Assembly (NCBI GenBank): GCA_964451445.1
Contig: CAYVIG010000001.1
Coordinates: 1 to 47,062 of the forward strand
DNA length: 47,062 bases
Direction: 5' to 3'
Source: an uncultured Dehalococcoidia bacterium
Lineage (GTDB): Bacteria > Chloroflexota > Dehalococcoidia > Lucifugimonadales > UBA3495
Positions within the stretch are counted from its first letter, which is position 1. Every line of letters starts with the position of its first letter. Positions 22,085 to 43,056 of this stretch are shown piece after piece. A program made the position numbers and the translations under genes. The notes below the pieces were generated by a model. That model did not search any database, had not been told where the DNA came from, and was given only the letters and a program-made list of their open reading frames with translations.

Positions 22085-22092
22085 ATAGGTAT

Positions 22093-22163
22093 ATAGGCTA
22101 GGTATTGCCAGTTACGGCTACAAATACTAGTATTGGTAGAGTAATGCTATGGCTCTAGCCTAT
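22093..22163 (+). promoter_or_regulatory. 9-bp inverted repeat ATAGGCTAG / CTAGCCTAT bracketing a sigma70-like promoter candidate
   Basis: Arms are at 22093-22101 and 22155-22163, with 53 nt between them. The loop holds TTGCCA (22105-10), a 17-nt spacer and TAGTAT (22128-33). The geometry matches the 17775-17842 element, and the right arm shares TAGCCTATT with it. Confidence 0.4.
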
Positions 22164-22386
22164 TTATTCTTATATTATACAGAGCGGTTGGTAACTCTGG
22201 ATAATCGATTCACCCCCTTTCCGCAACTACCACAGAGTATTAGCCGCTCAAAGCATTGGGGGACAGAAGTGCTTTTAGTTTGTAGGTAAAGGTATGTGAC
22301 TACTGGCTAATAAAGACATGGCACGTGAAGTGAAAGGTTGGCTCGGTGTTAGCTACCGTGTCCCTTAAATTTTTAAAGGAGTTAAA

Positions 22387-27597: not shown

Positions 27598-27775
27598 ATA
27601 TGAGACACTAACAAAAGATGAGAAAGATATAATATTTAACAATGCAGAGAAGAACTACAATAAATTATTAGAATCAAATACTTGGGAAGATGTATTAGAC
27701 ATACTTTGGTCTCAAGTAGAGTTTTTGAGGTATTATTCTATGGATGAAGAAACTAGAAGAAACCTGCCTCAATAG
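27587..27775 (+). CDS. Hypothetical protein (62 aa); last gene of the rightward arm
   Basis: ORF track. GGAG SD. Its 3' end overlaps the 3' end of the convergent 1020-aa gene by 23 nt. Confidence 0.6.
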   Translation: MLNKYETLTKDEKDIIFNNAEKNYNKLLESNTWEDVLDILWSQVEFLRYYSMDEETRRNLPQ

Positions 27776-30700
27776 CTTCCCTCAATTTAAGTGGCTCCAT
27801 TACACGTTTGTCAAGTGCCCTGCCGCGCTTACCTTTCCTTCGATTAAGTACTTGTTTTGGAGTCGCTTGACCTCTTAGATAGTCCAAAGAACCATATACT
27901 TTTCTAGCCTCAGCAACAGATAATCTTCTTCCTTCTCTATGACCTATGTCTGGTTGTCTTCTTGCACTCATAGAATGCTGTCTCTTTGACCATCCTCTTG
28001 GATATGAGCCTTCTTTACCTATTGCAGATGCTATATTTCTAGGCAATACTTCTTTTAATGTTGCATCTAGATATGTTCTCATTTCTTTAACATCTGGGTC
28101 AGGATGAAAACCCAATTCACCCTTTAATGCCGTAAACCAATCTCTTTTACCCATCATCGGAATTGTATAATTATGCCACCTTGAACCAACTGAAGATACA
28201 AGTGACATCATCTTATACTTTTGTTCTCTTTTAAATTCATCATTACCTTGAACTACCTGAGCTCTATCAAAAAAACTATTTTCACCTAAGTCCCACATTC
28301 CGACAGCTTCACCTATATTAGCAGCCCATACTAAGTTAGGACCAGCGAATGACCATGCACCTTGCCCGTATGTAGCTTTCTTTACTTCTTCCATTTCTTT
28401 TGGGTTATCCCTATCTGCGCTAAAAAATGTAATAAGTTTTTTCATTTCTTCAATAACATCATTCTGAGCTAGCTGGTTAAAATTAACATCAGATACGATA
28501 CTTAAACCTCTAACAAAATTATAAAGTAAACCCATTCTATATATTTTAAACATCTCATGACTTGTAAAGTCTCCTGCTCTCATGGATACGCCAGCATCTT
28601 TAACCCACTTAGCCATTAAATCAAACATAGACATTCTATAATGCATAAATTGACCAATAGCTTGACCTGCTGGAGCCGCGAACTTACCTTTAGAACCACC
28701 AAAAGGTTTAGCCTTCGCCCATTTTGCGTATTCAAAGTGTAAATCACTAGTTAAATTATACGCCATCTTACCAGCAGTATTTTCTCGCCATTGTTTTATC
28801 ATATCATCTTTGAGGTTCTCCATCTTTATTGGATTCTTTTTTCTAGTAGCATTTATTTGCTCTAAAACATAACCTTTAGGAAGAGTCTCTAAATTGGAAT
28901 GAACAAGACCAAAGGATATTTTAAACGTACTACCTCTGTTCCAATCTTCAGCTAATTTATGGAATCTTCCAGTTGCACCAGCTATTGTACCTGCAACGTC
29001 TGCAGCTTTTTTAGATACTGCCTTAACACCAGGAGCCGCCCTAACCAATTCACCATACGAATCAAGCTGATAGCCTTTTGGAACTGTTGACCCAGCAACA
29101 GCACCTCTTGTAGCCTCTTCTCTTGACATTCCTAATCTTTCAGAATTTCCAAAAATACCCTCAGATTCCATATACCAATTCAATCCATATTTAGCAGCTT
29201 GGCGTTTAACCATAGTTTGATTATCAACATTTTCTCTATACCACTGTTTAGACTGCTTTCTCGCTTTCCAACCATATTCAACATATTCATACATCCTTTG
29301 TGAAGCATTTCTTAAAGCAGACCTAACATTTCCACCCATAAGCCTAAAATAAGTAACTGAAGTAAGAACTCTACTTAAATCATTTATAACTGCATCTGAA
29401 TGTCCATCTACTTGTGTAAGACTATTTTTTACTTCTTGCATTTGACGTATAAGAGCATCTGACATATCCATTATGTCTTGATTGCCTTTGGCACTTGCAC
29501 GAGCGTGCATATCTAATAAACTAACAGTTTGTTGCATAAAATTATTTTCAAGATGAGTGTGAAAATTAAAAGCAGATGCGTCATATATATATTTTTTCAT
29601 AAAATAAGCAGGGTCTATACTATATCTAGGGTCAAAAATTCCTCCTCTACTTTCAACTCTATCTACTGATTTTTGAAATGCTTCAAAATCTTTAGTAAGA
29701 ATACCATCTTTTCCTAAAAGAGGTCTATCTTTTTGCTTTGTATCTCTCATAGCCACCTGAATCTGTCTCAATAATCTAGTAGCTCCTAATACATACAGTG
29801 GCATATATTTTCTCTGGGATATTTGTCCCATCTCGGCTTTTGAAAATCCATATGCTGACATCATTTCAAAGTCTTCCATAGCTTTATAAGTCTTAGGCTT
29901 ACCTTCAATGTCTATATTCCTTTGAAACTCAATATTTCTTATCATCTCTTGAGCTTTTTCCACAACGCTAGTTAAATCTCTATAATTACCCTCTCTGCCA
30001 TCTATTAACTTTGCAGTCTGCATAACTTTTTGTAGACCTCTACCTAATATATTTGCCCCACTTTCCCTAACTTCTTTTATATTTTTATCTATTTCTCTCC
30101 ATCTCTGCATATCTTGCTTTGAATATCCATGCTCTGGCTTTGTTAACTGCTCAACATCTAAACCATTCATTAATTCATGAAAGTGTCTAAAAGTTTTAGC
30201 AGAACCTGACAATCTAAATTCTGATAGTTCTCCTTCGAGCTCATTAATTTTTTTAGCTCTTTCCTTAGTAAAAGGAAGTGAAACTTCTTTATCTAATTCA
30301 TATTCAAGTCGTCTAAGTTTTTTAACATCACCACCATGATTTTTAGCTAGTTTATCCCAATTCTTTATAACTGTAGATATTTTAGCGTTGTTACCTAGTT
30401 GATTGGCTCTAAAAAAAGAAGCTTCATCAGATAATGTATGTTGAAATTTATCTAATTGTGGAAATCTACGTGAAATTGCTTTAGGTATTTTTATAAAGTC
30501 AAACAACCATCTAGTGCCTTTGCCTTGTTTTTCTATATCCCTAGACATACCCTTTCTGCGTATATCAAACTTTCTAGCATCTTTAATCGTGATGTCGTTA
30601 ACTTCAAAATCTAACTCTTTACCAGTGGCTTTTCTAAACAGCCATCTCATAGTCTCAGTGTCATTAGCATATCCTGCTTCTATTAGATTTTTATCTGTTT

Positions 30701-30815
30701 GATAATCTTTAACAACAGTGTCCATTTTCTCTAATAGTTTAGTCCGTTGACTTTCAGTTAAAGCACCCATAGCTTTACCGGTTCTATAATCCTTATGACA
30801 AGTTAACCAACTCAT
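27753..30815 (-). CDS. Large virion/ejection-type protein of unknown function (1020 aa)
   Basis: ORF track. TAATG coupling to the giant ORF. No motif recognised. Confidence 0.9.
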   Translation of the reverse strand: MSWLTCHKDYRTGKAMGALTESQRTKLLEKMDTVVKDYQTDKNLIEAGYANDTETMRWLFRKATGKELDFEVNDITIKDARKFDIRRKGMSRDIEKQGKGTRWLFDFIKIPKAISRRFPQLDKFQHTLSDEASFFRANQLGNNAKISTVIKNWDKLAKNHGGDVKKLRRLEYELDKEVSLPFTKERAKKINELEGELSEFRLSGSAKTFRHFHELMNGLDVEQLTKPEHGYSKQDMQRWREIDKNIKEVRESGANILGRGLQKVMQTAKLIDGREGNYRDLTSVVEKAQEMIRNIEFQRNIDIEGKPKTYKAMEDFEMMSAYGFSKAEMGQISQRKYMPLYVLGATRLLRQIQVAMRDTKQKDRPLLGKDGILTKDFEAFQKSVDRVESRGGIFDPRYSIDPAYFMKKYIYDASAFNFHTHLENNFMQQTVSLLDMHARASAKGNQDIMDMSDALIRQMQEVKNSLTQVDGHSDAVINDLSRVLTSVTYFRLMGGNVRSALRNASQRMYEYVEYGWKARKQSKQWYRENVDNQTMVKRQAAKYGLNWYMESEGIFGNSERLGMSREEATRGAVAGSTVPKGYQLDSYGELVRAAPGVKAVSKKAADVAGTIAGATGRFHKLAEDWNRGSTFKISFGLVHSNLETLPKGYVLEQINATRKKNPIKMENLKDDMIKQWRENTAGKMAYNLTSDLHFEYAKWAKAKPFGGSKGKFAAPAGQAIGQFMHYRMSMFDLMAKWVKDAGVSMRAGDFTSHEMFKIYRMGLLYNFVRGLSIVSDVNFNQLAQNDVIEEMKKLITFFSADRDNPKEMEEVKKATYGQGAWSFAGPNLVWAANIGEAVGMWDLGENSFFDRAQVVQGNDEFKREQKYKMMSLVSSVGSRWHNYTIPMMGKRDWFTALKGELGFHPDPDVKEMRTYLDATLKEVLPRNIASAIGKEGSYPRGWSKRQHSMSARRQPDIGHREGRRLSVAEARKVYGSLDYLRGQATPKQVLNRRKGKRGRALDKRVMEPLKLREAIEAGFF

Positions 30816-33800
30816 TATCTAATACACTCGCTCTTTCTTTTCCAATGGTCAAGAGGTTTTTCCTTAACTATACCATCTCTACCATAGTTTCTATTTAAAT
30901 TTTTAGCATTATCCCAATATCTTGCTATTTTATTTGTTGGTATATTACCAAAGTTCCTGCTTTTACCATCATGAAATTTCTGGGAGTTAAAAAATATTTG
31001 ATTAGCTGGTATATGTTTTTTAAGCTTTAACGCTGCTCTATACATAGATATTGGGTCTATCATTCCTCCTTCACCTTGAGTATACCCTATCAAAACATTA
31101 GCTGCGTCTTTTTCAGACTTATTCATCTCTCTAAATTTTTCATGCACAGTTTGATTTAAATAGTCTGAGTTGAACAAGTAATGATTTTTAACATCAATAT
31201 CTGAGCCCACCATACCGTCCATAGCTAATCTATAATCACCCATAGGCTCTACAAGTTTTCTATATCCCAATTTTTGCTGATACATAATATTCTTTAATAT
31301 ATCTGCCGCATATTTCTGAGTTATCGGACCATCTGTATATCCAGTTTGATTCACTATATCTTTTAAGTATTCTATTGCAAGTTGCTCCATCCTACCAAAG
31401 TCTTTCATGTATACCTTTTCCATGTGTGCCATTTTCTGAACATTCGAACCTGTCACTGGAAATGAAAGGATAATATTTTTAGACGATTCAGGTGTCAACA
31501 TCTTTTGAAATAATGCATGGATTCTTAATAGCTCAGATGAACTCTTATCAGTAGCTCTTTGACCAAATTTATCCATAATAAGATAATGTAGTTGAGCCTT
31601 TCTTTCAGAGCCAACAAGAGAATGTTGTCTTGGATGTAAGTATAACTTAGCTCTACCCGTATGATTAGGTAGCATTCTAGCGTCTATATCTTTTAATCTA
31701 TCCCCTAACTCTCTAACCATAGCATCATATACCTTATATTCCCCCCGAGGCATAACTTCCTTTATAGCACCATCTCTATATATAGTTGGTAAACCAGTAA
31801 ACGCTTCATGATTTATATAAGCACCAGTCTGGTCTTCACTACTATATTCGTATCTTCTTCCGTGCCTATGAAATTTCATATTTTTACCTAAAGCATTAAA
31901 ATTATTTTTACCTGGAGCTATTACTTCAACAATCTTATCTCCTTTTATAACAACAATAGGGTCACGAGTGTTATTTGTGTATTTACCTGCGGGTAGAAAT
32001 GATGCCTCAGTATTGGCAAATGGGTAAGCAGCCTTATCAAAGAACATCTCGCCTTTTGTATTCTGCCAATCTCTACCTGCTCCCATAATATGTTGCAAAT
32101 CAGTTAACGCCTCTGTTAGCTTTATTTTTTCGCTTTCTAATCCTTTAAATTCTGAATAATCTTCTACTAATTCAGGCTTATATCGTAATCTCATATCCTG
32201 TATCTTGTTTTCAACAGCATCCAATCTTCTTCGAATACCTATTACATCAGCTGCTCTCATTTCATTCTTTACATAGTTCTTAAAGGCATTATTTATATTT
32301 TTATTATACTGTTGTTGGTATGCCTGCTCTGACGTTAAACCTGGAACATCATATGCCTCACCTTCCTCAATAAGACGTAAAAGCTTTCCAACATCTGATT
32401 GAAAAGGGTCTATGTCTCTAAATTTTCTAGCATTTAAGTTCTGCATTCTTCTCATACCTAAGTCAAATGGACTTTGAGTTCTAGTGTTAAAATAACCCCT
32501 AGCTGAAGTTAAGCCAGTTTCCATATCTATACCTGAGCCCATGTAAGCTTTATTCTTATCTTTATGGAAAGCATATTGTAATTTATCATAAGCTGTAGCA
32601 AATTCTTGTAAACCAGCGTGTCTAGAGTATCCACCACCATCTATATCTTGCCCTCTATTTAACTGTATGTATGAGCCAAGAGGTCTTATAAAGTTTCTTT
32701 CTACTGCTTCTACTATATTATTAAACTCAGCAGGTCTTAAGTTATTAATCTCATTATCACCAACTTGACTACCACTTATCTTTTCTAATTTAAACAGTCC
32801 GTCTTCACCAAACCATATGTCTCTCATAGAATCTTGAACAAATTCCTTATTATTCCAATTTCTAGGAGTATCCTTATATACGTCTATAAAAGCTTTTACA
32901 TACTTAGTAATTGTATCTGATGTATTCAAATAGTTAGACTGTCCTCTTTTAAGTTTAAGATGGTACTGGTTTTTACCTATACTAATCTCACCAATAGCAC
33001 CTTCTCCAAACATATTATTCATATATGTCATTATTTGATGCATTTTAACAAACCTAGAACGAACTATACCAGTTTCAATTATGTTACCTTTATGCTCAAC
33101 AGCATCTTGGAATGATTCAAATTCTTTTTTAATCTTATTATGTATATCTTTATTAGACGCTAATGTTGTGTGACCTGCTAGTCTAGAAGCTTCACCCCAT
33201 ACTCCCTCTGGAGCCGATAAATAATTTGAAGACTTATCAAAGTCAAAGTCGGCATCAAGTATAGTTAAAGCATCAACAGAATTAGTTTCAGCGACATTAC
33301 CCTCTCCTTTAGACACACCTTGAACTTTCTCAATTACGATGTCACCTGCCATGTTTCTTGGTTGTCTAGATTTTAATCCAGCTAACCACACTTCTTGTCC
33401 ATCTTTGCCATGTAAATTTTCTAATTTATGTATATATTCGGCTACAGTAAGACCTTCAAGCTCTCTTATGCCTAAAGTTTCTTGAACTTTTGCTTCAGCT
33501 AATTCATACTTTCTAGTCATTTCTGATACTAAGCTTTCAGTCGTAACCTTATCTGTCATACTTTCAGCCATATCATAGACAACAACAGGTTCACCTCTTA
33601 ATTTTTTATCCCTACTTACTTGAAATCCATCTATATATAAAACATTACCGTTTTTACCTCTATCAACAAATATACCCTCAGAGCCTGATTCAACTCTAAC
33701 AACTAACGCATGAGTATCATTCGTATTTGAATTGTGAGTATCTCCACTTGCAGCTAATGATTTTTTATCAAATATTTTTAATGGTTTACCTGCACTATAA

Positions 33801-36800
33801 TTTGAAACTCTTCCACCTCCAAAAACTTCCTGTACCAATCGGTCTGTTCCACCTATATTTCTTCTCATTCTAACAGGTAGGTCTAAGTCACCAGCTTCAG
33901 CAGTCATCACATCAGAAGAACCGTCTCTTATCCTTGACGCTGATATATTCCCACCATCTAAATATGAACTAATAACACTTCTTTCTAATATAGGTATCAT
34001 CCATTCTGAAGCCATTATTCCATTGTTTTGTATAATATAATCTAAACCTGTGTTGACAAGATATTGGTCTCCAACTTCTTGAGAATACCCTAATACTTTT
34101 CTAGCAACAGCAGTAGCATTGATAGGGTCTTGCCATAATAAATCCATATTCTTTTCAAATGTACTCATCCTTCTATTGATTTGAGTCCAATCAGTAGCTG
34201 ATGCTTGACCATCAGTATTCCAGTGTATCGATGTGTTTGCACCAAAGACAGCATCATGTTCTCTAGAGGCTTGTCTGATATTGATACTTTCTAGAGGTAT
34301 TCTTTGAACGTAATTATCAGCATAATTAAGTGTAATTTGATTTGCAACCTTACTTAACGTTTCTAGACCTAAATTTTCACTAGTCATAGAATTGACAGGC
34401 ATATAATTTTCAACTATCTCACCATCTCTGTTCTTAGTCTCATTCCTTTTATTAGCTGATTTAAAAGTTATTCCATGTATACTTCTTGCACTAAACACAG
34501 GGTCTAATGTTGGATTATACTGAATAGATGTTTTCAGTAAGAAAGATGATATATCCCCAGTGTCTCTATTTATATCATTATGTGCAAATATTGGCTTTAT
34601 AGCTCCTGCTTTTATATGCCTACCTCCATGTGAGTCGTATTCTATCATGCTATCTTTAACACCTATTAATGACATAAGAGATTCAAAAGCATCTCTGCTA
34701 ACATAAGTTATAGCGTCTACATTAGTTCTGCCGGCTTCTAAGGTTTCCTTCATAGCATCAATCTGTTCTTGCGTATACTTCCTATCAAGACCTTCTTCAT
34801 ATCTTCGAGCTGATGTTTCTGCATGGTCAAAAGGGTTAAATTCACCAGCTCGTTCAAAGCTCATTTCATCATCAATAGATAATATTTTAAAAGGGGAAGT
34901 TCCATCTTCACCAAAAACTCTCTTAACAGCTTCAAATGCTATTGCGTGTCTATCTGAATCCGTTCTTTGTTTACGCATAAGAGCATAATGAAAAGCAATA
35001 TTTTCTGGTGTACCTACAAAGCCAGTCTTAGGTTCAAACATTTTTAAACGCTTCCAATCTGATTTCAAGTCAGAAGCTGAAAGAGTCTCTAGTAAATACG
35101 CTTCAACTTTAGTTGGACTATCAGAAACAGCTCTTATAATAGTGATAGCCTCTGCTATCTTAGAATCCCTTTTATCGCCTAAGTCAAATATTTCTTCAAG
35201 CTTTCTAGATATTCTTGTGTTACTCATATCAACAACAGCTTCTAAATCTTTTCTAAACTCAGAATTTCTATCCATAAAAGAATCTCTTATAGCCCCAACA
35301 GATGAGTCATTAACCTTTATAAGTATATCTGTTCCCTCATCTAAACTGACAAGAGAGAACTCTTCATGTTCTTTTGCTAATACATCTTTATTTTTCTCTA
35401 AATCTCGTGTTGTACCTTCTTGGTAAAATTCTTTTTTAGCTTCGACAGAGTTTACACCCATACTTCCTCTTGATATATCTGATTCTATCTCAGCTCTTAA
35501 ATTTTTGTCTATAAAATTATATCGTCTACCATCTCTACCTATCGCACTATTACTCATAATAAACATATTACCAGCTAGACCTGGAACGTATCTCTCAATA
35601 CCTAAAAAACCACCTTTCTCTGTATTAGGTACAGACATTTTCGAAAGTTCCCATCCCCCTTGATTGTATTCTAAAGTTCTAACAATCTTACTTGTAAATG
35701 CATTAGATAAAACTTGACCTAAATCGGTGTTGAGGTCTTGCATTAACTGTCCTCGTTCAGATGCTTTAAGTGTGCCTTCTGATATTGCTATCTCCATTCT
35801 TCCTATAATATCTTGCTTTATTGTATCAAAGAAGAAATCAACCATCTCCTCTGGAGTTAAATCTCTTCTGTTTTTTAACTCTACCAATCTAGCTTTATCA
35901 CGTCTTAATTTATCAAGAACTGCTTGAGGTACTTCTCTATTTAAAGCTCTATAATTAGTTTCTATACTATTTAAAGCTGAATCAAGTATATGTATTCCTG
36001 AGTTTTCAGTTTGTAACCTCTCCATCAGGGCTCTTTCAAGTTTTACAAAATCAGCTGTATCATATAGATATTTTGAAAGAAATCTATTTGGACTTATTTT
36101 GTTTTCTTGTTCTATATTTACCTTATCTGACGGTAATTCTTTATTAGATATTTGACCTTCTATTATATCTTCTACATCTTTCCTATCAGGTTTTAAGTTC
36201 CACTCTCTTACTTCTCTAAACATTTTTGCTAAGATAGTCTGATAATCTCCATGAGGTGTATCAGGGGATGCGTTTTCAATAGCTTCAAGTATATTCTCAT
36301 ACTCTGGTTTTAATTTTCTTATCGCTCTAACAGCATTTATATTATTGTCATTTAATGCGATAGTCATTTGTTCGGTTAAGGATTTAACAGTAGCTCCGCT
36401 TTTTGTATACATATCATGCAATTCTTTATCAACTACCTTACCATCGCTATCAATTAGAGATTCTGCCATACCTCTAACTCTATTTATCAAATCAGAACCT
36501 TCTACAATCATAGTATGAGCATCTTCCATCCCTGCTAAGTTCTTTTCTCTTCTAGATTCCATCTCAGCGACTCTTAAAGCAGACCAAATAACCTCTTCCT
36601 TGTCTTTCATGGAGTCTTTAGAATCCATCCTTATCATTTTAGAGCCACTATTTATAACTGCTTCATGTATATCTTGATAAAATTCTCTTAATAATTGTAC
36701 TTCGCCTGGGTCTTTCCCTTTTGCTTCCATTTGACTAAAATAATATTCCATATCAACAGGGTCTCTTAATCGACCAATGCTTTCTGTAAAATCCCTATTT

Positions 36801-39800
36801 TTAGATAGGCTTAAAATACCACGCTTTATTTCTCTTGAAGCTCCTGGTATATCTAATTTAGAAATTGCCTTGTCAACAAGTTTGGCTTCAACGTATTGTA
36901 AAGCATCTGCGTTCTTAAAGGCATCACCAAACATACCCTCTGCTAAATCTTTAATTTCAGTTGCTTGCTCAATAGATATTTCATTATCTCTATCAGTGCC
37001 AGATTTCTGTTGATTACCTAATTTATTAATTCTGCTAAAGTTAGCGACAAATTCTGATAGCTCTGATAATTCACTATCATTTAACTTACCTTTGTTCTCG
37101 CTATTACCATCTAGCTTTGTTTTCCCAGTTGTAAATATTTGGTCAACCTTATCTTGTAACTCTTTAACTTTTTCTGGTGATTGATTTGTAGATACTTTAT
37201 CAGGGCTTCCTGTCATAAACTCCATAACATTCTCTGCTTGAGTCCATTTACGACTTACATCATAAGCAGCGTGCCAAACATCGTGACCTAATATTAAGTC
37301 ATCCTGTGTACCTGATTCTTTTCTAGCTTCCCTTGTAGAGCTTTCACCGTATACTATACGATGATGGTCATCAACTCTTTCACGGTGAATCTTAACTGCT
37401 GAATCCCAATCTCCAGAACTAGCATCAAACTTTCCTTCAGCTCCTATATTTTGTTCAACAATCCACCTGTTTCTTCTACCCCATTCAACAACTTGATTCC
37501 AAGTTAGTATAACATTTTGCTTTTGTTGAGAGTCAGCGTTCTTGGTATCAGAAGATTTGTATGGCATTTTAATAGTTTTAGGGACAACTATTCTTCCATC
37601 ATCTAATGTTTGATATTTAATACCTAAAGCGTCAGCTATATTAGTAAACCAACCAACGATATTATTATGAGCATATCTTGTTGTCTCAATAGAAGCCTCT
37701 GCCTGCAAATTTTCTAATAATCTATGTACATTATTTTCTCCCCTCATAGTAGCTCTTTTACCTTGAATAGGAGTATTAGCCAGCTCTTTAACGAACTCAA
37801 CAGCTTCCTTTGGTGTCATCTCTCGAAGCACTGTCTCGCCAGACTGGAATCCATCTAAATGTTTTACCATAGACATGGCTATTGAATATTGTTCCCTTAT
37901 TAATGCTTTCTCTTTTTTTGAATACTTTTTACTAGTTAAAGCTTCATGGATAGCCGCATCAAATGCTTGAGCATCAGGGTTGTCTGATTTAACTTTATTA
38001 GGGTCAAGCTCATTGTCTCTTAATCTCTCAAACATCCTTCTGTAATCAGGGTGAGCCTCTGTCATATTTATTAATAGACTGTCTCTATATTTTTCAGGGA
38101 CTTCTATATTTCGAAAGTATTGTTCACCTACTCTTTGTCTTTGTTTTCTACTTAATCCAAACCGTTGTAAAGCAGCTGTTGTTTCGGCTAAATAACCATT
38201 TTTACCTTCAATGTACTCATTAATTTTTGTTCCCCTTCTAGCTCCATACCATTTTTGAGAACCAATTGGGTCTTGCCTTCTAAAGCTTCTACCTTGTCTT
38301 GTAAAAATTGCACCCATAACTATATTAGCTGAAATATCTTCCCATCCCTCACCAAAAGAAGTTCCAAGAGTATGTTTAACTCTATCTGTAACATTAGCAC
38401 CATGCGTTGTTTTCCACACTTCATGAACTGTCTGTAAATTCATAGTGAAAGCACCAGCTCCCATTCTAGGTAGGGAATGACCTAATTCTTTCATAGTCTC
38501 TTTACCTAGTAAGAATGGAGCATTATTGCGAAAGGCTCTTCTTACTTGAGCCAACACTAACGGAAGTTCTTTCTCTGGTATATGTGTCCACCAATCAGTT
38601 TTACCTATATGTTTATCTAAAGCAGGTATTTTATAATGTTTTAAAGAACCTTCACTTGAATTGTTGATAAGCTTTAAGGTAGCCCTCATTTCTCTAGGCT
38701 TCATATTTTTTATAGGCTTTAGACTTCTCATAAGACCACCAACAACCGTATTTATCTTACCTTTGTTCTTGTTCCAAGGTCTAGGTATTGTTAACAATGG
38801 CTTTGTAGTACCCTTACCAAAATGCCTAACAGGTCCTAAGAAACCTAAATAAGCACCATGTTTTAATCCTTCGTTAACCAAATGTCCCCACCCTGCGTCT
38901 TTATAGTATCCTTCAGGTCCAAAGAATGTTAAATCTTTATTAGAATCTGCATATTGCTGAGCATCTCCCCATAAAGCATCAGCATATTGACTAGCTAATG
39001 TAGAGCCAATCCCATATGTCGCCCCTAATAAAGCATCATAGCTATAAGCGGCTAGTAAATCTCCAGTCATTCCAGGTATTCTACCAATAGTTCCTTCTAG
39101 TAATGCATGAACATTTCCTGGTTTATTATACTTGACAGTTTCAAGGGCGATACTTGCAATATCATCAGCTGCGTCATCTGCTACGCCTGATACTTTAGAT
39201 AGAGTTTCTTTTATTTCAGCTTTAGCTACTTTGTCATATAATTCATTATGCTTTCTTAATCCAATGCCAGCAGCTCTACCTTTTCTACCAATAGATGTCT
39301 TAGCTACTTTTATAACCTCTGCAGCTGCGTCATCTGCTAACTTAGTTGAGGACTTTCCTGTGAGCTTAGCAGCTCCTTCTATTAATTCTTTTTGAGCTAC
39401 TTTCGATAGTCTAGGAGTTACTCCAAGAAGTCTAGTTGCACCTCCAACGGCTTTAGCTCCTACATAACCAACGCCTTTAACAAGTTTAGCAGCTGCTCCA
39501 AAAGGAATTAACATACCAAGACCAGCTCCAACAGCGTGTCCTGCCATAGCTCTTGGAGTTAAATCCCAAAACTCTTCATCCTCATCCCCAATAAGAGACT
39601 TCTTCATAGTGCCCTTATCGTACCCACCTAAATGTTCCCAAAGAGATGGTGCTACTGCAGCAGTACTAGCTAATCCCCATATAAATTGATTGGAAAATGT
39701 ACCACCTTTTTCTGTTTGGTCAGCATCCATCCTTACACGATTTAAGGCAGATGCTCTTACTCTCTCAGCGTCTTCAACCTCTGATATATTTCTTATCACA

Positions 39801-39907
39801 TTGACAGACTTAGATGGAGAGTTATATCGTACTTGCTCTTCGTCTAGAGAAGCATTTAAATCTCTAATAAATTGTCTTTTATCTACAAATAATGAATCTT
39901 GAGGCAT
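30815..39907 (-). CDS. Giant protein (3030 aa) with a two-barrel (beta-like plus beta-prime-like) RNA-polymerase core in residues ~1760-2225; candidate virion-packaged RNAP
   Basis: The ORF is uninterrupted for 9.09 kb. Motifs were read from the translation (see the two motif features). The RNAP call rests on motif matches by eye. The CDS itself is essentially certain. Confidence 0.65.
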   Translation of the reverse strand: MPQDSLFVDKRQFIRDLNASLDEEQVRYNSPSKSVNVIRNISEVEDAERVRASALNRVRMDADQTEKGGTFSNQFIWGLASTAAVAPSLWEHLGGYDKGTMKKSLIGDEDEEFWDLTPRAMAGHAVGAGLGMLIPFGAAAKLVKGVGYVGAKAVGGATRLLGVTPRLSKVAQKELIEGAAKLTGKSSTKLADDAAAEVIKVAKTSIGRKGRAAGIGLRKHNELYDKVAKAEIKETLSKVSGVADDAADDIASIALETVKYNKPGNVHALLEGTIGRIPGMTGDLLAAYSYDALLGATYGIGSTLASQYADALWGDAQQYADSNKDLTFFGPEGYYKDAGWGHLVNEGLKHGAYLGFLGPVRHFGKGTTKPLLTIPRPWNKNKGKINTVVGGLMRSLKPIKNMKPREMRATLKLINNSSEGSLKHYKIPALDKHIGKTDWWTHIPEKELPLVLAQVRRAFRNNAPFLLGKETMKELGHSLPRMGAGAFTMNLQTVHEVWKTTHGANVTDRVKHTLGTSFGEGWEDISANIVMGAIFTRQGRSFRRQDPIGSQKWYGARRGTKINEYIEGKNGYLAETTAALQRFGLSRKQRQRVGEQYFRNIEVPEKYRDSLLINMTEAHPDYRRMFERLRDNELDPNKVKSDNPDAQAFDAAIHEALTSKKYSKKEKALIREQYSIAMSMVKHLDGFQSGETVLREMTPKEAVEFVKELANTPIQGKRATMRGENNVHRLLENLQAEASIETTRYAHNNIVGWFTNIADALGIKYQTLDDGRIVVPKTIKMPYKSSDTKNADSQQKQNVILTWNQVVEWGRRNRWIVEQNIGAEGKFDASSGDWDSAVKIHRERVDDHHRIVYGESSTREARKESGTQDDLILGHDVWHAAYDVSRKWTQAENVMEFMTGSPDKVSTNQSPEKVKELQDKVDQIFTTGKTKLDGNSENKGKLNDSELSELSEFVANFSRINKLGNQQKSGTDRDNEISIEQATEIKDLAEGMFGDAFKNADALQYVEAKLVDKAISKLDIPGASREIKRGILSLSKNRDFTESIGRLRDPVDMEYYFSQMEAKGKDPGEVQLLREFYQDIHEAVINSGSKMIRMDSKDSMKDKEEVIWSALRVAEMESRREKNLAGMEDAHTMIVEGSDLINRVRGMAESLIDSDGKVVDKELHDMYTKSGATVKSLTEQMTIALNDNNINAVRAIRKLKPEYENILEAIENASPDTPHGDYQTILAKMFREVREWNLKPDRKDVEDIIEGQISNKELPSDKVNIEQENKISPNRFLSKYLYDTADFVKLERALMERLQTENSGIHILDSALNSIETNYRALNREVPQAVLDKLRRDKARLVELKNRRDLTPEEMVDFFFDTIKQDIIGRMEIAISEGTLKASERGQLMQDLNTDLGQVLSNAFTSKIVRTLEYNQGGWELSKMSVPNTEKGGFLGIERYVPGLAGNMFIMSNSAIGRDGRRYNFIDKNLRAEIESDISRGSMGVNSVEAKKEFYQEGTTRDLEKNKDVLAKEHEEFSLVSLDEGTDILIKVNDSSVGAIRDSFMDRNSEFRKDLEAVVDMSNTRISRKLEEIFDLGDKRDSKIAEAITIIRAVSDSPTKVEAYLLETLSASDLKSDWKRLKMFEPKTGFVGTPENIAFHYALMRKQRTDSDRHAIAFEAVKRVFGEDGTSPFKILSIDDEMSFERAGEFNPFDHAETSARRYEEGLDRKYTQEQIDAMKETLEAGRTNVDAITYVSRDAFESLMSLIGVKDSMIEYDSHGGRHIKAGAIKPIFAHNDINRDTGDISSFLLKTSIQYNPTLDPVFSARSIHGITFKSANKRNETKNRDGEIVENYMPVNSMTSENLGLETLSKVANQITLNYADNYVQRIPLESINIRQASREHDAVFGANTSIHWNTDGQASATDWTQINRRMSTFEKNMDLLWQDPINATAVARKVLGYSQEVGDQYLVNTGLDYIIQNNGIMASEWMIPILERSVISSYLDGGNISASRIRDGSSDVMTAEAGDLDLPVRMRRNIGGTDRLVQEVFGGGRVSNYSAGKPLKIFDKKSLAASGDTHNSNTNDTHALVVRVESGSEGIFVDRGKNGNVLYIDGFQVSRDKKLRGEPVVVYDMAESMTDKVTTESLVSEMTRKYELAEAKVQETLGIRELEGLTVAEYIHKLENLHGKDGQEVWLAGLKSRQPRNMAGDIVIEKVQGVSKGEGNVAETNSVDALTILDADFDFDKSSNYLSAPEGVWGEASRLAGHTTLASNKDIHNKIKKEFESFQDAVEHKGNIIETGIVRSRFVKMHQIMTYMNNMFGEGAIGEISIGKNQYHLKLKRGQSNYLNTSDTITKYVKAFIDVYKDTPRNWNNKEFVQDSMRDIWFGEDGLFKLEKISGSQVGDNEINNLRPAEFNNIVEAVERNFIRPLGSYIQLNRGQDIDGGGYSRHAGLQEFATAYDKLQYAFHKDKNKAYMGSGIDMETGLTSARGYFNTRTQSPFDLGMRRMQNLNARKFRDIDPFQSDVGKLLRLIEEGEAYDVPGLTSEQAYQQQYNKNINNAFKNYVKNEMRAADVIGIRRRLDAVENKIQDMRLRYKPELVEDYSEFKGLESEKIKLTEALTDLQHIMGAGRDWQNTKGEMFFDKAAYPFANTEASFLPAGKYTNNTRDPIVVIKGDKIVEVIAPGKNNFNALGKNMKFHRHGRRYEYSSEDQTGAYINHEAFTGLPTIYRDGAIKEVMPRGEYKVYDAMVRELGDRLKDIDARMLPNHTGRAKLYLHPRQHSLVGSERKAQLHYLIMDKFGQRATDKSSSELLRIHALFQKMLTPESSKNIILSFPVTGSNVQKMAHMEKVYMKDFGRMEQLAIEYLKDIVNQTGYTDGPITQKYAADILKNIMYQQKLGYRKLVEPMGDYRLAMDGMVGSDIDVKNHYLFNSDYLNQTVHEKFREMNKSEKDAANVLIGYTQGEGGMIDPISMYRAALKLKKHIPANQIFFNSQKFHDGKSRNFGNIPTNKIARYWDNAKNLNRNYGRDGIVKEKPLDHWKRKSECIR
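33236..33367 (-). other. Beta-prime-like catalytic barrel motif with the metal-binding Asp triad, residues 2181-2224
   Basis: RQPRNMAGDIVIEKV, then about 20 residues later ILDADFDFD. Compare bacterial beta-prime: NRAPTLHRLGIQAFEPV ... YNADFDGD. The spacing from R to the first Asp is 39 residues here versus 35. Confidence 0.65.
34481..34627 (-). other. Beta-subunit-like catalytic barrel motif, residues 1761-1809
   Basis: GGRHIKAGAIKP, then about 25 residues later YNPTLDPVFSARS. Compare bacterial beta: GRHGNKGVISKI ... NPLGVPSRMN. Confidence 0.55.
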
Positions 39908-39908: not shown

Positions 39909-41147
39909 TTATCTTGGAGGGTATGCGGCTTTTGATTGTTTATCTTTTTGGTTATTCAAATCTTGACTTACATCAGAAAATACGCTAACTATATTTCTTG
40001 TTGCACTATTACCGCTCTTATAAACATCAGAAACTTTCTTTCTATCGTATTCAAAGTTAGCATTATCTAAAGCCTTGAATGTATCTAGTATTCTACTCGC
40101 GTCTAATGACTTAGATTGTTCACTTACAAACATTAATCTTCTTTGGGTTTCATCATAATTATTAATATCTCCAGTTGTTTCTAACATATTATTTAATGTT
40201 AAAATTAAATCCTTTTTATCCTCGACTCCTTTAGCACCTTTTATAGCATCCGCTGTTAAATTTAACTCATTTCTAAGAAAACTTCTATATTCGTTACTCT
40301 TTTGAAATGCCATAGCAGACGCTTTAGCCTGTAAGTCTTTCATTGAATGAGGTGCATATTCATGTATAATACCTTCATATCTTTCCCATGTCTTTTCAGT
40401 TGTAGGCGAACCTCTAAAAATATGACCTTCCGTTTTACCTTCACTAAAATCTGCCCTTTTCATATTTTTCAACTCTGAAATCTTAGAAGCATCTGTTTTG
40501 GCAAGGTTTCTTAAGCTTCTGCCTGTTAAGCCTCCTCCACCACCTCGATATTGCAAGTAATCCATATAACCAGGATTTATATCATGAGCAGCTGCAATAC
40601 TTTCGGCAGATTTTTGATAGACTTCAGTTAGTGCTAAATTATAAAAATAATTATCTATTTTATTAGCCCTTACTCCTCTAGCTTCACCAATTTTTTTTGC
40701 ATGAGAAATCATTCCAGACCTTTCGGATTCAGCTCTGCTTCTATCCTTAGACGCTTCTACTCTATATCCTCTATTCCAACCTTTATTTAAATCCCCCATA
40801 TTCTTATCCCAAAAACCCTGACCTGACCAATCCCACGGGTCTAAGCCTTCTCCTAGTACTGAATGCAATCCTTCTGTTGAGGCTGCTTGAGTTGAAGAAA
40901 ATAGCTCTTCAGCTTCTCCCATTAAAAGACCAGGCTCTAAATAACTCTCAATATTACCATACAATCCTTTTATGCCAGATAAAGTACCCTCACCTTGAAC
41001 AACTTCCTCTTGTAAAATTTGATTTGTTCTTTGCTCAACGGTAGGAGACGCAGGTGATACTTTACTAGAATCAACAGGTTCTTCTTTAGGTCTATATTTA
41101 TTTAAATATTTACTTCTTAAATTCTTCTTTTTCTTGTCACCGTTCAT
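39909..41147 (-). CDS. Virion/ejection-type protein of unknown function (412 aa)
   Basis: ORF track. Its stop lies 1 nt before the giant ORF's start. Confidence 0.85.
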   Translation of the reverse strand: MNGDKKKKNLRSKYLNKYRPKEEPVDSSKVSPASPTVEQRTNQILQEEVVQGEGTLSGIKGLYGNIESYLEPGLLMGEAEELFSSTQAASTEGLHSVLGEGLDPWDWSGQGFWDKNMGDLNKGWNRGYRVEASKDRSRAESERSGMISHAKKIGEARGVRANKIDNYFYNLALTEVYQKSAESIAAAHDINPGYMDYLQYRGGGGGLTGRSLRNLAKTDASKISELKNMKRADFSEGKTEGHIFRGSPTTEKTWERYEGIIHEYAPHSMKDLQAKASAMAFQKSNEYRSFLRNELNLTADAIKGAKGVEDKKDLILTLNNMLETTGDINNYDETQRRLMFVSEQSKSLDASRILDTFKALDNANFEYDRKKVSDVYKSGNSATRNIVSVFSDVSQDLNNQKDKQSKAAYPPR

Positions 41148-42511
41148 CTTATATCCAATACTCCCATCTCAAGATGGTCTAAAAATTCTTTAAATGCATC
41201 AGCTGACCTTTGATTGAAATTTTGGCTACTTTCATCCGATGCGTCATACATGACATCCATCCAATCATCCCATTCTTTTTCATTCTTAACATTAATTATT
41301 AAACGCTGTTGCCTTCCTGCTCCAGTGTCATATATTTCATGGTCTAAATCAATAGACCCTTCAGCCGCAGCTTGGTCAAATATGCCTACAAAATTAGGAT
41401 ATTGGAGAGACCATGAGTCAATCTTTTCTTCTTGAGGGTAAGTTGAATCAAAATGTAGCTTCAATCTATCCTTTGCAATCTGACCTGTCTCATCACCTGT
41501 CGTAACTAGTCTTTTTAAACTTTTATATTGTGTATCCATTCCTAAATAACTAAATATTTCTTGTGCTACACTAATATCAGATTTTGACCTTCCCTTTTTA
41601 TCCCACTTTATAAATCCTTCAATAATACTTCTGTCTGTTGCTTGTGGATTACCCCACATATCATACATAGCTTGTTCGTATTGAGATAAAACAGCTGGAG
41701 CAACGCCTGCCTTTGACTCTAAAAATTTCTTTTCCATTTCAAACGTAGAATCTGTTTTTTCAAGACCTCTTTCAGTATCCATATATAATGCAGAATATAT
41801 AGGTGTAGTATATTTTTGATATATTATATCTTCTTCAGTTGCATATTGTTCAGTTTTTGATTCATCAGCATACTTACCTGTAACTCTTTTATCCTTTAAA
41901 TAATCTTGATACTTATCAGCTGACATAATTCGTTTATTAGCGGCTAGCCCTGACCTCACGCCTCTTCCAAACCCTTCCCAGTCTATACCTTCGAGACCTT
42001 TATATTCGCCTTTTGCATCTTGTATAATTGTTTCTTCCATCATATCAATATCGTGGACAGTTAAAACACCAGGACTTGCATCCCCCTTATAATCTAAATT
42101 TTCTGCAAAAGCAGCGCCTCTTTGAACACTAGTTCTATACGCAGAGTACAAATCTCCTCCATAATCTATACCATGAACACCAATAGCATCTTCTAAATTA
42201 GCAACTCTTTCAGCTTGTTTGTCATATGTAAGAGTACCTGATTTTGGTGCATAAAAGCCTTCGGAATCTTTCTTTAAATCTGACTCTGAGTATTGACTAA
42301 GTAAAGCTTTGTTATGTGTATATACATCTCTTTCTTTCTGCTCTCTATATGCTCTATCGTCTCTTAGTTGTTGTCTCTTAGTGGCAGCAGACTCTCTTAT
42401 ATTTTGCATAGCTATACGTTCTTTGCTACGAGTCTCTTCTCTTTCAATCCTAGAAAGCGTATCTAAGACGCTTGATAAATCTGCTAATGCTCCTAATCGT
42501 TGATTTGCCAT
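41144..42511 (-). CDS. Virion/ejection-type protein of unknown function (455 aa)
   Basis: ORF track. ATGA overlap with the downstream gene. Confidence 0.85.
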   Translation of the reverse strand: MANQRLGALADLSSVLDTLSRIEREETRSKERIAMQNIRESAATKRQQLRDDRAYREQKERDVYTHNKALLSQYSESDLKKDSEGFYAPKSGTLTYDKQAERVANLEDAIGVHGIDYGGDLYSAYRTSVQRGAAFAENLDYKGDASPGVLTVHDIDMMEETIIQDAKGEYKGLEGIDWEGFGRGVRSGLAANKRIMSADKYQDYLKDKRVTGKYADESKTEQYATEEDIIYQKYTTPIYSALYMDTERGLEKTDSTFEMEKKFLESKAGVAPAVLSQYEQAMYDMWGNPQATDRSIIEGFIKWDKKGRSKSDISVAQEIFSYLGMDTQYKSLKRLVTTGDETGQIAKDRLKLHFDSTYPQEEKIDSWSLQYPNFVGIFDQAAAEGSIDLDHEIYDTGAGRQQRLIINVKNEKEWDDWMDVMYDASDESSQNFNQRSADAFKEFLDHLEMGVLDIR

Positions 42512-43056
42512 TATAATTGACTTATTTGTGATTCAATCTCATCCATCTGTCTTCTCATATCAGCTGTGGATGCGAAAGCATTCGAATATGCTCCTATTTT
42601 TTGATTTTCATATTGTGTGTCTATATTTTCTTTACCTGCTTTATAGCCTTGCCAAACAGATGTTTGCATTTGGTCTGATGTCGCTTGGTCTCTATAACTA
42701 TTTGAGAAAGAACCTCCCCCATCATGTATTTTGCCCATCTCAGTCTTCAATCCTTCTGTCATCTGCGATGTCATCATATCTTTTTGAACTTGCTTTCTAT
42801 CATCTGCTAACTCCAACTCACCTTCAAGAGATTGACCTATGCCAACAGCACTGTAAGCAGTTTGACCCTTTTGTTCCTTCATTTGTTTCTTTAAAAGCTT
42901 GTCTGCGTCATCTTGTTTTTTTCTATCCCAAAGAGACATCCCAAGACCCGCGACAGCCACTGCCGCCTGAATCCAATCACTCTCATCATCATCAGAAGGC
43001 GACTTCTCTTTTTTAGTCCTGTGTGGTCGCATTCTTTTATAATGTCTTACAATCAT
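42511..43056 (-). CDS. Protein with one predicted transmembrane helix (181 aa)
   Basis: ORF track. WIQAAVAVAGLGMSLW is a hydrophobic segment between a basic/acidic N-terminus and a Q/K/E/D-rich remainder. 1-nt overlaps on both sides. Confidence 0.8.
   Translation of the reverse strand: MIVRHYKRMRPHRTKKEKSPSDDDESDWIQAAVAVAGLGMSLWDRKKQDDADKLLKKQMKEQKGQTAYSAVGIGQSLEGELELADDRKQVQKDMMTSQMTEGLKTEMGKIHDGGGSFSNSYRDQATSDQMQTSVWQGYKAGKENIDTQYENQKIGAYSNAFASTADMRRQMDEIESQISQL

What the first reader, a model, noticed from the sequence alone, without database searches (positions are those of the whole stretch)
30815..39907. 3030-aa ORF carries both double-psi beta-barrel signatures of a cellular-type RNA polymerase: candidate single-polypeptide, virion-delivered RNAP
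SEEN: one uninterrupted 9.09-kb ORF takes up about 19% of the window. Residues 1761-1809 (nt 34481-34627) read GGRHIKAGAIKP, then about 25 residues later YNPTLDPVFSARS. Residues 2181-2224 (nt 33236-33367) read RQPRNMAGDIVIEKV, then about 20 residues later ILDADFDFD.

ESTABLISHED: the bacterial RNAP beta subunit carries GDKxxGRHGNKGVISKI ... NPLGVPSRMN in its catalytic barrel. Beta-prime carries NRAPTLHRLGIQAFEPV ... NADFDGD, whose three Asp hold the catalytic Mg. The order here (beta-like first, beta-prime-like about 450 residues later) and all three Asp (D2220, D2222, D2224; nt 33236-33250) are conserved. Single-polypeptide two-barrel RNAPs are known: SPbeta YonO, the virion RNAP gp66 of the crAss-like Cellulophaga phage phi14:2, and eukaryotic QDE-1-type RdRPs.

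INFERENCE: the gene closes a translationally coupled operon of ejection-type proteins in the late arm. I recognise no other RNAP gene. The protein is therefore probably packaged and injected to transcribe the rightward early arm. About 2400 residues outside the two motifs match nothing I recognise. The genome also differs from classic crAss-like phages: it appears to be only about 47 kb and has strong SD sites. This may be a distinct lineage of giant RNAP-fusion proteins.
Basis: partly seen in the sequence, partly recalled or inferred. Interest (0 to 1): 0.9.

Follow-up and report, generated by a model that had tools for sequence, protein, structure and literature searches.

The report
Giant crAss-type virion RNA polymerase gene
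A 3030-residue gene in a 47-kb uncultured podophage encodes a single-chain 'two-barrel' RNA polymerase of the kind that crAss-like phages inject into their hosts, in an unrelated phage lineage, and it and its neighbour carry conserved terminal cysteines that suggest the injected proteins are chained together.

Summary
In detail: one 3030-codon ORF (30815-39907, minus strand) carries all four quoted motifs at the stated coordinates.

- Pfam, PHROGs, PDB sequence searches and GenBank phages find nothing.
- A profile search finds about 90 clusters, mostly about 3000 residues long. K1771, P1772, K1792, K1820, R2181, P2183 and D2220/D2222/D2224-K2225 are invariant in them.
- An AlphaFold2 model of residues 1620-2800 (pLDDT 78, pTM 0.79) has phi14:2 gp66, the crAss-like virion RNAP, as its top PDB match (Foldseek E 2e-8). 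QDE-1 and cellular and viral RNAP large subunits follow.
- The gene is penultimate in the late operon. It is followed by a 1020-aa partner and a convergent early arm, as in phi14:2 (gp66, then gp65).
- TerL, portal and capsid genes are not crAss-type, and Shine-Dalgarno sites are common.

Verdict: a new, sequence-distinct variant of the crAss-type virion RNAP outside Crassvirales. Packaging and activity are inferred, not shown.

Unexpected extra: the RNAP has a single Cys, 3 residues from its C-terminus. The partner has a single Cys at residue 6. This holds in more than 50 relatives and in three crAss-like genomes (gp67-gp66-gp65), suggesting head-to-tail tethering of ejected proteins.

The parts
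30815..39907 (-). 3030-aa ORF: giant single-polypeptide two-barrel RNA polymerase (candidate virion RNAP)
   Evidence: uninterrupted ORF. (family of about 90 clusters). (fold).
31508..35050 (-). RNAP core, aa 1620-2800, modelled by AlphaFold2. Holds both DPBB barrels, the connector and downstream helical elements.
   Evidence: pLDDT 78.2, pTM 0.79; top PDB hit 6vr4_A, E 2.1e-8. BFVD hits down to E 9e-29.
34409..34621 (-). Beta-like DPBB barrel (aa about 1763-1833) with invariant K1771, P1772, K1792, F1815, S1817, K1820
   Evidence: Strands E144-214 of the model. Invariant columns. hhalign to the gp66 family aligns K1771 with gp66 K1012 and K1792 with K1027, P 1.1e-4.
33221..33391 (-). Beta-prime-like DPBB barrel (aa about 2173-2229) with R2181-x-P2183 and the Q/L-D-A-D-F-D-x-D-K motif
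   Evidence: Strands E554-610 of the model. Invariant R2181, P2183, G2203, N2209, D2212, D2218, D2220, D2222, D2224, K2225. hhalign aligns DADFDFDKS with gp66 GSDFDIDKM, P 8e-4.
33236..33250 (-). Catalytic Asp triad D2220/D2222/D2224 (DFDFD)
   Evidence: coordinates. D[FY]DxD at the equivalent place in almost all family members; all three Asp are retained even in the variants DSDNDFD and DADHDWD.
35048..38647 (-). All-alpha N-terminal region (aa 421-1620) with no recognisable fold. Contains the invariant motif S-x-P-R-M-x-x-G-x-x-x-M-N at aa 478-490 (nt 38438-38500).
   Evidence: model pLDDT 70, pTM 0.51, almost entirely helical; no significant PDB match (best E 0.02). R481, G485, M489 invariant.
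39413..39559 (-). Glycine-zipper, membrane-like segment (aa 117-165). It is the only TM-like stretch among the late proteins.
   Evidence: Kyte-Doolittle 19-residue mean of 1.63 at aa 125-143; highest of all late proteins. G123, G127 and G131 are 96-100% conserved.
30824..30826 (-). Codon of C3028, the only cysteine in the 3030-aa protein, 3 residues from the C-terminus
   Evidence: Exactly one C-terminal Cys in 33/33 full-length relatives and in about 52 IMG/VR loci.
27753..30815 (-). 1020-aa downstream partner gene (TAATG overlap with the RNAP stop). It is the last gene of the late operon. It occupies the same position as phi14:2 gp65, the 'RNAP-associated' virion protein. Its single Cys is at residue 6 (nt 30798-30800).
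   Evidence: Syntenic orthologues in L001, L005, L007, L008, L009. C6 invariant in a 26-sequence alignment. No Pfam or PDB match.
39909..44255 (-). Four upstream, tightly packed, cysteine-free genes (412, 455, 181 and 399 aa). They are candidate co-packaged or ejection proteins with no family match.
   Evidence: Conserved order and similarity in L001.

Best explanation
The ORF encodes a giant single-chain DNA-dependent RNA polymerase of the two-barrel (double-psi beta-barrel) class. It is a remote structural homologue of the virion RNAP gp66 of crAss-like phage phi14:2.

The catalytic core is roughly aa 1620-2800. It has a beta-like barrel that supplies conserved lysines (K1771, K1792, K1820). 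About 450 residues later comes a beta-prime-like barrel whose D2220-x-D2222-x-D2224 loop binds the catalytic Mg2+.

The core is preceded by about 1600 residues of all-helical sequence of unknown fold, which begins with a glycine-zipper, membrane-like segment.

Inferred steps:
1. The protein is made late, as the penultimate product of the structural operon.
2. It is packaged in the capsid with the neighbouring cysteine-free proteins and the 1020-aa partner.
3. It is threaded, partly unfolded, through the short tail at infection.
4. It transcribes the convergent early arm (about 15.6-27.8 kb), which has replication and recombination genes but no RNAP of its own.

Shown here: the ORF, the motif conservation, the predicted RNAP fold and the synteny. 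Not shown: catalytic activity, template preference, packaging and early-gene specificity.
For: 1. Fold. The AF2 model of aa 1620-2800 (pLDDT 78.2, pTM 0.79) has 6vr4_A (phi14:2 gp66) as top PDB hit (E 2.1e-8, probability 1.0). QDE-1 and many RNAP largest subunits follow. BFVD matches include crAss-like phage proteins.

2. Conservation. A profile search of 1.84 billion representatives finds 90 clusters, 42 with E at or below 1e-30, mostly 2950-3200 aa. The densest invariant residues of the whole protein are the Asp triad plus K2225, R2181/P2183 and the three Lys of the first barrel.

3. Motif style. It is crAss-type (DFDxDK with a non-Gly fourth residue, as in gp66 DFDIDK) rather than the cellular DFDGD.

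4. Co-linear weak profile-profile matches to the gp66 family at both barrels (P 1.1e-4 and 8e-4).

5. Similar lengths after the Asp motif: 806 aa here, 815 aa in gp66.

6. Synteny. As in phi14:2 (gp67, gp66, gp65, then a convergent arm), the gene lies at the distal end of the late operon. One more large protein follows, then a convergent DnaB-containing arm. This holds in the window and in L001, L005, L007 and L009.

7. No other RNAP was detected among ORFs of 100 aa or more.

8. Cargo-like traits. The six-gene block is almost free of Cys: 2 Cys in 5497 aa against 32 expected, P 6e-12. Its terminal-Cys signature is shared with gp65, gp66 and gp67, which the phi14:2 record annotates from MS/MS proteomics, two of them as virion structural proteins.
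Against: - No sequence method alone links it to any RNAP. Pfam, PHROGs, phmmer and hmmsearch against PDB, BLASTP against gp66 and tblastn against GenBank phages are all negative. Full-core hhalign is weak (P 0.013).
- The fold evidence rests on a predicted model.
- The N-terminal 1600 aa shows no similarity to the gp66 N-terminal domains.
- Packaging is inferred from context only.
- No conserved early-promoter motif was found in the early-arm intergenic regions. Sigma-70-like sites are no more frequent than in shuffles. So nothing here shows which polymerase reads the early arm.
Confidence: 0.78

Rival explanations
1. It is a structural or ejection protein, for example part of a trans-envelope channel or internal core. 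It only retains an RNAP-derived scaffold and no longer polymerises RNA.
For: - About 60% of the protein lies outside the RNAP core, is helical and has an N-terminal membrane-like glycine zipper.
- It sits among putative ejection genes.
- gp66 itself crystallised with its DFDID loop in a conformation that cannot support catalysis.
Against: - The three Asp, K2225, R2181/P2183 and the three Lys of the first barrel are invariant across relatives as low as 19% identical. They are the most conserved positions of the whole protein.
- That pattern is what is expected of an active site, not of a scaffold.
Confidence: 0.08
2. It is an active two-barrel RNAP but is not injected. It acts inside the cell after late expression, for example in late transcription, replication priming or RNA-templated synthesis like QDE-1.
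For: - The genome has a DnaB-type helicase but no recognisable primase or DNA polymerase.
- QDE-1-type enzymes also use RNA templates (PMC9508822 abstract).
- Non-virion two-barrel RNAPs exist in phages: P23-45 gp64 and the AR9/PhiKZ nvRNAPs.
Against: - Known non-virion phage RNAPs are encoded with early or middle genes. This gene is translationally coupled inside the late structural operon next to the tail fibres.
- Its size, near-total Cys depletion and terminal-Cys signature match the phi14:2 proteins gp65, gp66 and gp67, whose annotation rests on MS/MS proteomics.
- A late-made, non-packaged polymerase could not start the infection cycle.
Confidence: 0.1
3. The motif matches and the fold hit are artefacts: chance short motifs plus an over-confident model. 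The protein has nothing to do with RNAPs.
For: - All sequence-only database searches are negative.
- The same QDADFDLDK string occurs by chance in Wza.
- The alignment depth for AF2 was only 37 sequences.
Against: - The model was built without templates. Even so, its only significant PDB hit among 350,542 chains is a virion RNAP, and the following hits are almost all RNAPs. BFVD gives the same picture.
- Both barrels are found in the correct order, with family-wide invariant catalytic residues.
- Independent synteny with phi14:2 agrees.
Confidence: 0.03

Closest known systems
Virion RNA polymerase gp66 of crAss-like Cellulophaga phage phi14:2 (PDB 6VR4) and its Crassvirales orthologues
   Same: - Single polypeptide with the beta-like barrel first and the beta-prime-like barrel second.
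- DFDxDK motif with a non-Gly fourth residue.
- Best structural match.
- About 810 residues after the Asp motif.
- Encoded at the distal end of the late operon, followed by one large 'RNAP-associated' protein and a convergent arm.
- Conserved C-terminal cysteine in an otherwise Cys-free chain.
   Different: - No sequence-level similarity by BLASTP, phmmer or hmmsearch.
- 850 residues longer, all of them at the N-terminus, which shows no fold similarity to gp66.
- About 100 extra residues between the barrels.
- No N-terminal Cys3 and no gp67-like upstream partner.
- The partner lacks the HExxH zincin motif of gp65.
- The genome is 47 kb rather than about 100 kb.
- TerL, portal and capsid genes are in other PHROG families.
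- Shine-Dalgarno sites are frequent.
QDE-1 / RDR-type eukaryotic RNA-silencing polymerases
   Same: Single-chain two-barrel architecture. Second-best fold class in PDB (7y7p_B probability 0.97; RDR2 7w82).
   Different: About 1000 aa cellular enzymes with no virion context. The Foldseek E-value is only 1e-2 and sequence identity is 9%.
Thermus phage P23-45 gp96, a virion two-barrel RNAP fused to the tape-measure protein
   Same: A two-barrel RNAP embedded in a giant virion protein whose other part is thought to help passage through the envelope.
   Different: In gp96 the RNAP is N-terminal and fused to a siphovirus tape measure. Here it is the C-terminal half of a podovirus cargo protein. gp96 was not among the listed fold matches.
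N4-like (Schitoviridae) 3500-aa virion RNAP
   Same: A giant polymerase of about 3000-3500 aa that is packaged in a podovirus capsid and ejected to transcribe early genes. This is a functional analogy.
   Different: The N4 enzyme is a T7-like single-subunit (right-hand) polymerase. The protein here has the unrelated two-barrel fold.

Membership tests
Two-barrel (DPBB) RNA polymerase superfamily | Two double-psi beta-barrels forming one active site, with the beta-like barrel N-terminal to the beta-prime-like barrel in single-chain members | tested here: met
   The template-free AF2 model has beta-rich modules at aa about 1763-1833 and 2173-2229. Foldseek top hits are RNAPs (6vr4_A E 2.1e-8, QDE-1, Pol I/II/III). 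This rests on a predicted structure, not an experimental one.
Two-barrel (DPBB) RNA polymerase superfamily | DxDxD Mg-binding motif in the beta-prime-like barrel | tested here: met
   D2220, D2222 and D2224 are invariant in 28/28 full-length relatives and are present in IMG/VR loci.
Two-barrel (DPBB) RNA polymerase superfamily | Conserved basic residues (two Lys in beta) in the beta-like barrel facing the active site | tested here: inconclusive
   K1771, K1792 and K1820 are invariant. hhalign pairs K1771 and K1792 with gp66 K1012 and K1027.
Two-barrel (DPBB) RNA polymerase superfamily | Bridge helix and trigger loop downstream of the second barrel | tested here: inconclusive
   Long helices follow the second barrel (model H653-681, H704-727, H774-799). 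They were not assigned by superposition.
Two-barrel (DPBB) RNA polymerase superfamily | Template-dependent RNA synthesis | not testable with these tools
   Needs biochemistry.
crAss-like phage virion RNAP (phi14:2 gp66 family) | Detectable sequence homology to gp66 orthologues | tested here: not met
   BLASTP against gp66 is not significant. phmmer and hmmsearch against PDB, which includes 6VR4, give no hit. Only weak, motif-centred hhalign matches were found (P 0.013 for the full core; 1.1e-4 and 8e-4 for sub-windows).
crAss-like phage virion RNAP (phi14:2 gp66 family) | Closest fold is gp66; DFDxD with non-Gly at position 4, followed by Lys | tested here: met
   (6vr4_A top hit). DFDFDK here against DFDIDK in gp66.
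crAss-like phage virion RNAP (phi14:2 gp66 family) | Encoded in the cargo module at the end of the structural operon, next to an RNAP-associated virion protein | tested here: met
   Window order is ...412, 3030, 1020, then a convergent arm. phi14:2 order is gp67, gp66, gp65, then a convergent arm. The order is conserved in L001, L005, L007 and L009.
crAss-like phage virion RNAP (phi14:2 gp66 family) | Physically present in virions and ejected into the host | not testable with these tools
   The phage is uncultured. Only indirect signs are available: Cys depletion, terminal-Cys signature and synteny.
Order Crassvirales (as the genome's taxon) | crAss-type TerL, portal and major capsid protein | tested here: not met
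   The window's TerL, portal and MCP hit phrog_38, phrog_156 (P22-like portal) and phrog_1328 / Pfam SU10_MCP. Those of phi14:2 hit phrog_6681, 6547 and 11589. There is no tblastn similarity between the two phages. The best GenBank TerL matches are 25% identity or less, to Roseobacter and Lentibacter podophages.
N4-like virion RNAP (T7-like single-subunit polymerase) | Right-hand T7-type polymerase domain | tested here: not met
   No Pfam RNA_pol match. The fold is two-barrel.

The most novel reading that the evidence does not exclude
The RNAP and its downstream partner are covalently tethered head to tail. The link would be a disulfide (or another Cys-mediated bond) between the single cysteine at the RNAP C-terminus and the single cysteine at the partner N-terminus. 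In crAss-like phages the chain would be gp67-gp66-gp65.

All other cysteines have been purged, so the cargo would leave the capsid as one unfolded, polyprotein-like thread in gene order. The tether would then be cut by the reducing cytoplasm, releasing or activating the polymerase.

This would be a previously undescribed principle of protein ejection, shared by Crassvirales and this unrelated podophage lineage.
Probability: 0.35. Interest if true: 0.85.

Novelty: new variant of a known kind. Interest (0 to 1): 0.7.

Why it matters
- Virion-packaged two-barrel RNAPs have so far been tied to Crassvirales (about 100-kb Bacteroidota phages) and to one Thermus siphovirus. This result shows the same enzyme class in a 47-60 kb podophage lineage with different head and packaging genes and with Shine-Dalgarno-rich genes. 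The family is invisible to Pfam and PHROGs. It recurs in 56 IMG/VR contigs and about 90 protein clusters, at least one of them from a Tara Oceans metagenome.
- It widens the known distribution of the phage lineage from which eukaryotic RNAi polymerases were proposed to derive.
- It provides a diverse alignment that pinpoints catalytic residues.
- The conserved junction cysteines give a directly testable hypothesis for how very large cargo proteins are organised and ejected. Cultured crAss-like phages such as phi14:2 and crAss001 could be used to test it now.

Tried and rejected
- Pfam, PHROGs, phmmer against PDB and tblastn against 50,697 GenBank phages, using the protein or its core: no hits.
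- Family HMM against PDB sequences: only a chance 18-residue match to Wza (QDADFDLDK), rejected as coincidence.
- BLASTP against gp66: not significant.
- Full-core hhalign against a 35-sequence gp66-family alignment: weak (P 0.013). Motif-centred sub-windows were better, but the windows were chosen by eye, so these P-values are optimistic.
- The word-indexed homologue search found only 1 relative with the protein and 7 with the alignment. The exhaustive HMM search was needed.
- N-terminal region aa 421-1620: the model is moderately confident, but there was no meaningful PDB match and no similarity to the gp66 N-terminus.
- The 1020-aa partner: no Pfam, PHROG or PDB-profile match and no HExxH, so it cannot be called a gp65 homologue.
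- Search for a shared early-promoter motif in six early-arm intergenic regions: nothing convincing. Sigma-70 and terminator scans are at background level.
- No tRNA or Rfam match.
- Exact-sequence look-up of the window protein in public assemblies: not on record.
- Literature searches found no prior description of this family or of the terminal-cysteine pattern in the held library. The library lacks many subscription papers, including the final Nature version of Drobysheva et al..

Full report
**Observation.** The window holds one uninterrupted 3030-codon ORF on the minus strand, 30815-39907. The upstream 412-aa gene ends 1 nt before the ATG of this ORF. The ORF's stop overlaps the start of a further 1020-aa gene as TAATG. 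The gene is therefore penultimate in the operon, not last.

**Genome context.** A 953-codon tail-fibre frame reads continuously across the window ends, so the 47,062 bp look like a complete circular assembly. The minus-strand late operon runs in this order:
- TerS
- a metallophosphatase
- TerL (phrog_38)
- a P22-like portal (phrog_156)
- an SU10-type capsid protein
- two collagen/Mtd_N-type fibres
- four small unknown proteins
- the 3030-aa gene
- the 1020-aa gene

It converges on a plus-strand arm (about 15.6-27.8 kb) that encodes a PD-(D/E)XK nuclease, Sak, DUF932, a Dam-type methylase and DnaB. No other RNAP, DNA polymerase or primase was recognised.

**Sequence searches.** The protein has no Pfam, PHROG or PDB-sequence match, and no tblastn match in 50,697 GenBank phage records. 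The word-indexed search found one relative (P0001, 34% identity, 3059 aa) on a syntenic 59.8-kb viral contig.

An exhaustive HMM search with aa 1600-2600 plus P0001 found 90 clusters, 42 of them at E of 1e-30 or lower. Most full-length members are 2950-3200 aa. IMG/VR holds 56 loci on contigs of 15-83 kb, and one relative is from a Tara Oceans metagenome.

In an alignment of 28 full-length members, the invariant residues concentrate at the two proposed barrels:
- K1771, P1772, K1792, F1815, S1817 and K1820
- R2181, P2183, G2203, N2209, D2212, D2218, D2220, D2222, D2224 and K2225

**Fold.** AlphaFold2 was run without templates on a 37-sequence alignment. It gave a confident model of aa 1620-2800 (mean pLDDT 78.2, pTM 0.79).
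- Against 350,542 PDB chains, the only hit below E 1e-3 is 6VR4, the virion RNAP gp66 of crAss-like phage phi14:2 (E 2.1e-8, probability 1.0).
- It is followed by Pol III RPC1, QDE-1 (probability 0.97), Pol I/II largest subunits, RDR2, and the AR9, PhiKZ and ASFV RNAPs.
- BFVD gives E down to 9e-29 for unnamed UniProt viral proteins (accessions A0A516...) and 1e-9 to 1e-5 for proteins of uncultured crAss-like phages.

By eye and by hhalign, both barrels align co-linearly with the gp66 family:
- IKP...LKTS...FKSANK with PLKG...YLKYS...GVKVG
- RQPRN...DADFDFDKS with YRIPN...GSDFDIDKM

The sub-window P-values are 1.1e-4 and 8e-4.

As in gp66, the fourth motif residue is not Gly, and about 810 residues follow the motif. 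Full-length sequence methods do not connect the two families. This is therefore a separate, fold-level relative, not a gp66 orthologue.

**Rest of the protein.** A model of aa 421-1620 is almost entirely helical (pLDDT 70). It has no significant PDB match and no resemblance to the gp66 N-terminus. Residues 117-165 form a glycine-zipper hydrophobic segment. It is the only membrane-like stretch in any late protein, and its glycines are conserved. For crAss001, the cargo protein gp45 has a predicted N-terminal transmembrane helix and is proposed to exit first and contribute to channel formation. By analogy, the N-terminus here may take part in envelope penetration. This is inference.

**Relation to Crassvirales.** The module layout matches phi14:2. 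There, the order is gp67 (virion protein), gp66 (RNAP), gp65 (RNAP-associated virion protein) and then a convergent arm.

The head and packaging genes, however, belong to different PHROG families. There is no tblastn similarity to phi14:2. The nearest GenBank TerL proteins are 25% identical or less. Shine-Dalgarno motifs precede 18 of 35 genes.

On the packaging and head genes tested, the phage is not a crassvirus. It carries a crAss-type RNAP cargo module in a different podophage backbone.

**Unexpected finding: junction cysteines.**
- The 3030-aa protein has exactly one cysteine, C3028, 3 residues from the C-terminus. The 1020-aa partner has exactly one, C6. The four upstream proteins have none.
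- At the Cys frequency of the other late proteins, 32 Cys would be expected in this six-gene block. Two are observed (P 6e-12).
- All 33 full-length relatives have one Cys, 0-6 residues from the C-terminus.
- In IMG/VR loci, about 52 of 52 RNAP ORFs follow the same rule. About 47 of 47 downstream ORFs have one Cys at position 3-13. C6 is invariant in a 26-sequence alignment.
- The same logic holds in crAss-like phages. In phi14:2, gp67 has its single Cys as the last residue, gp66 has only C3 and C2179, and gp65 has only C3. Two divergent crAss-like contigs repeat this pattern, and a Cys-richer one keeps the terminal positions.
- Natural fusions behave as predicted. An RNAP with a C-terminal zincin fusion keeps only Cys3.
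- The preprint on gp66 notes that the three proteins are a single polyprotein in some phages.
- The held literature does not mention these cysteines.

The simplest reading is a head-to-tail disulfide tether that mimics a polyprotein for ordered ejection and is cleaved in the reducing cytoplasm. This is a hypothesis, not a result.

**Verdict.** The gene encodes a new, sequence-distinct variant of the crAss-type single-chain two-barrel RNAP, almost certainly a packaged cargo protein, in a non-crass 47-kb phage. Activity, packaging and promoter specificity remain to be shown. No early promoter motif was found.

Noticed in passing
window 30824-30826 (C3028 of the RNAP) and 30798-30800 (C6 of the 1020-aa partner); also L001, L005, L007-L065; phi14:2 L003/L004/L006; L066-L068: Junction-cysteine rule. 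The RNAP has a single Cys at its C-terminus, and the next large gene product has a single Cys at residues 3-13. All neighbouring cargo-like proteins are Cys-free. The rule holds in more than 50 relatives. It is mirrored in crAss-like phages: gp67 has a C-terminal Cys, gp66 has Cys3 plus a C-terminal Cys, and gp65 has Cys3. This suggests head-to-tail tethering of ejected proteins.
   Followed up: partly
window 44325-47062 joined to 1-130; and 134-1186: A 953-codon tail-fibre frame is continuous across the window ends, which implies a complete circular 47,062-bp assembly. This fibre and the next one (350 aa) share the N-terminal MARNN-I--R-G motif (Mtd_N-like).
   Followed up: partly
window 39413-39559 (aa 117-165 of the RNAP protein): A conserved glycine-zipper hydrophobic segment (G123, G127, G131). 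It is the only membrane-like stretch in any late protein. It recalls the predicted N-terminal TM helix of crAss001 cargo protein gp45.
   Followed up: partly
window 38438-38500 (aa 470-490): An invariant motif E...S-x-P-R-M-x-x-G-x-x-x-M-N in the otherwise poorly conserved N-terminal half. Its function is unknown.
   Followed up: no
proteins P0072, P0077, P0080, P0086: A more distant subfamily with MPAPRTGPHD...RD[FY]DTDK and GQKPVGLSS...NKTHYFYD motifs. Where the C-terminus is present, it again has a single Cys 1-2 residues from the end. This may be a second giant-RNAP family bridging to other lineages.
   Followed up: no
window 15.6-27.8 kb (plus-strand arm): The replication arm has DnaB, Sak, a PD-(D/E)XK nuclease, DUF932 and a Dam-type methylase, but no recognisable DNA polymerase or primase. 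Unusually long non-coding stretches lie at 15875-16125, 16378-16852 and 22085-22386. They have no tRNA or Rfam match and no shared promoter motif.
   Followed up: partly
window 3475-5847 (790-aa protein): Apolipoprotein-like helical repeats, with DNA-level periodicity in multiples of 54 nt (D1/D2 repeat families). The gene lies directly downstream of the capsid gene. It could be a decoration, scaffold or internal protein.
   Followed up: no
window 13374-14252: A calcineurin-like metallophosphatase / 'DNA repair exonuclease' gene sits between TerS and TerL. phi14:2 also carries a metallophosphatase inside its structural block (gp75).
   Followed up: no
PDB Wza chains 26gs_O, 9xgv_C, 9r60_A: The family HMM's only PDB sequence 'hit' is an 18-residue string in the Wza exporter (KDVIKQQDADFDLDKMVN) that mimics the catalytic motif. 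It shows that the bare motif can occur by chance.
   Followed up: yes
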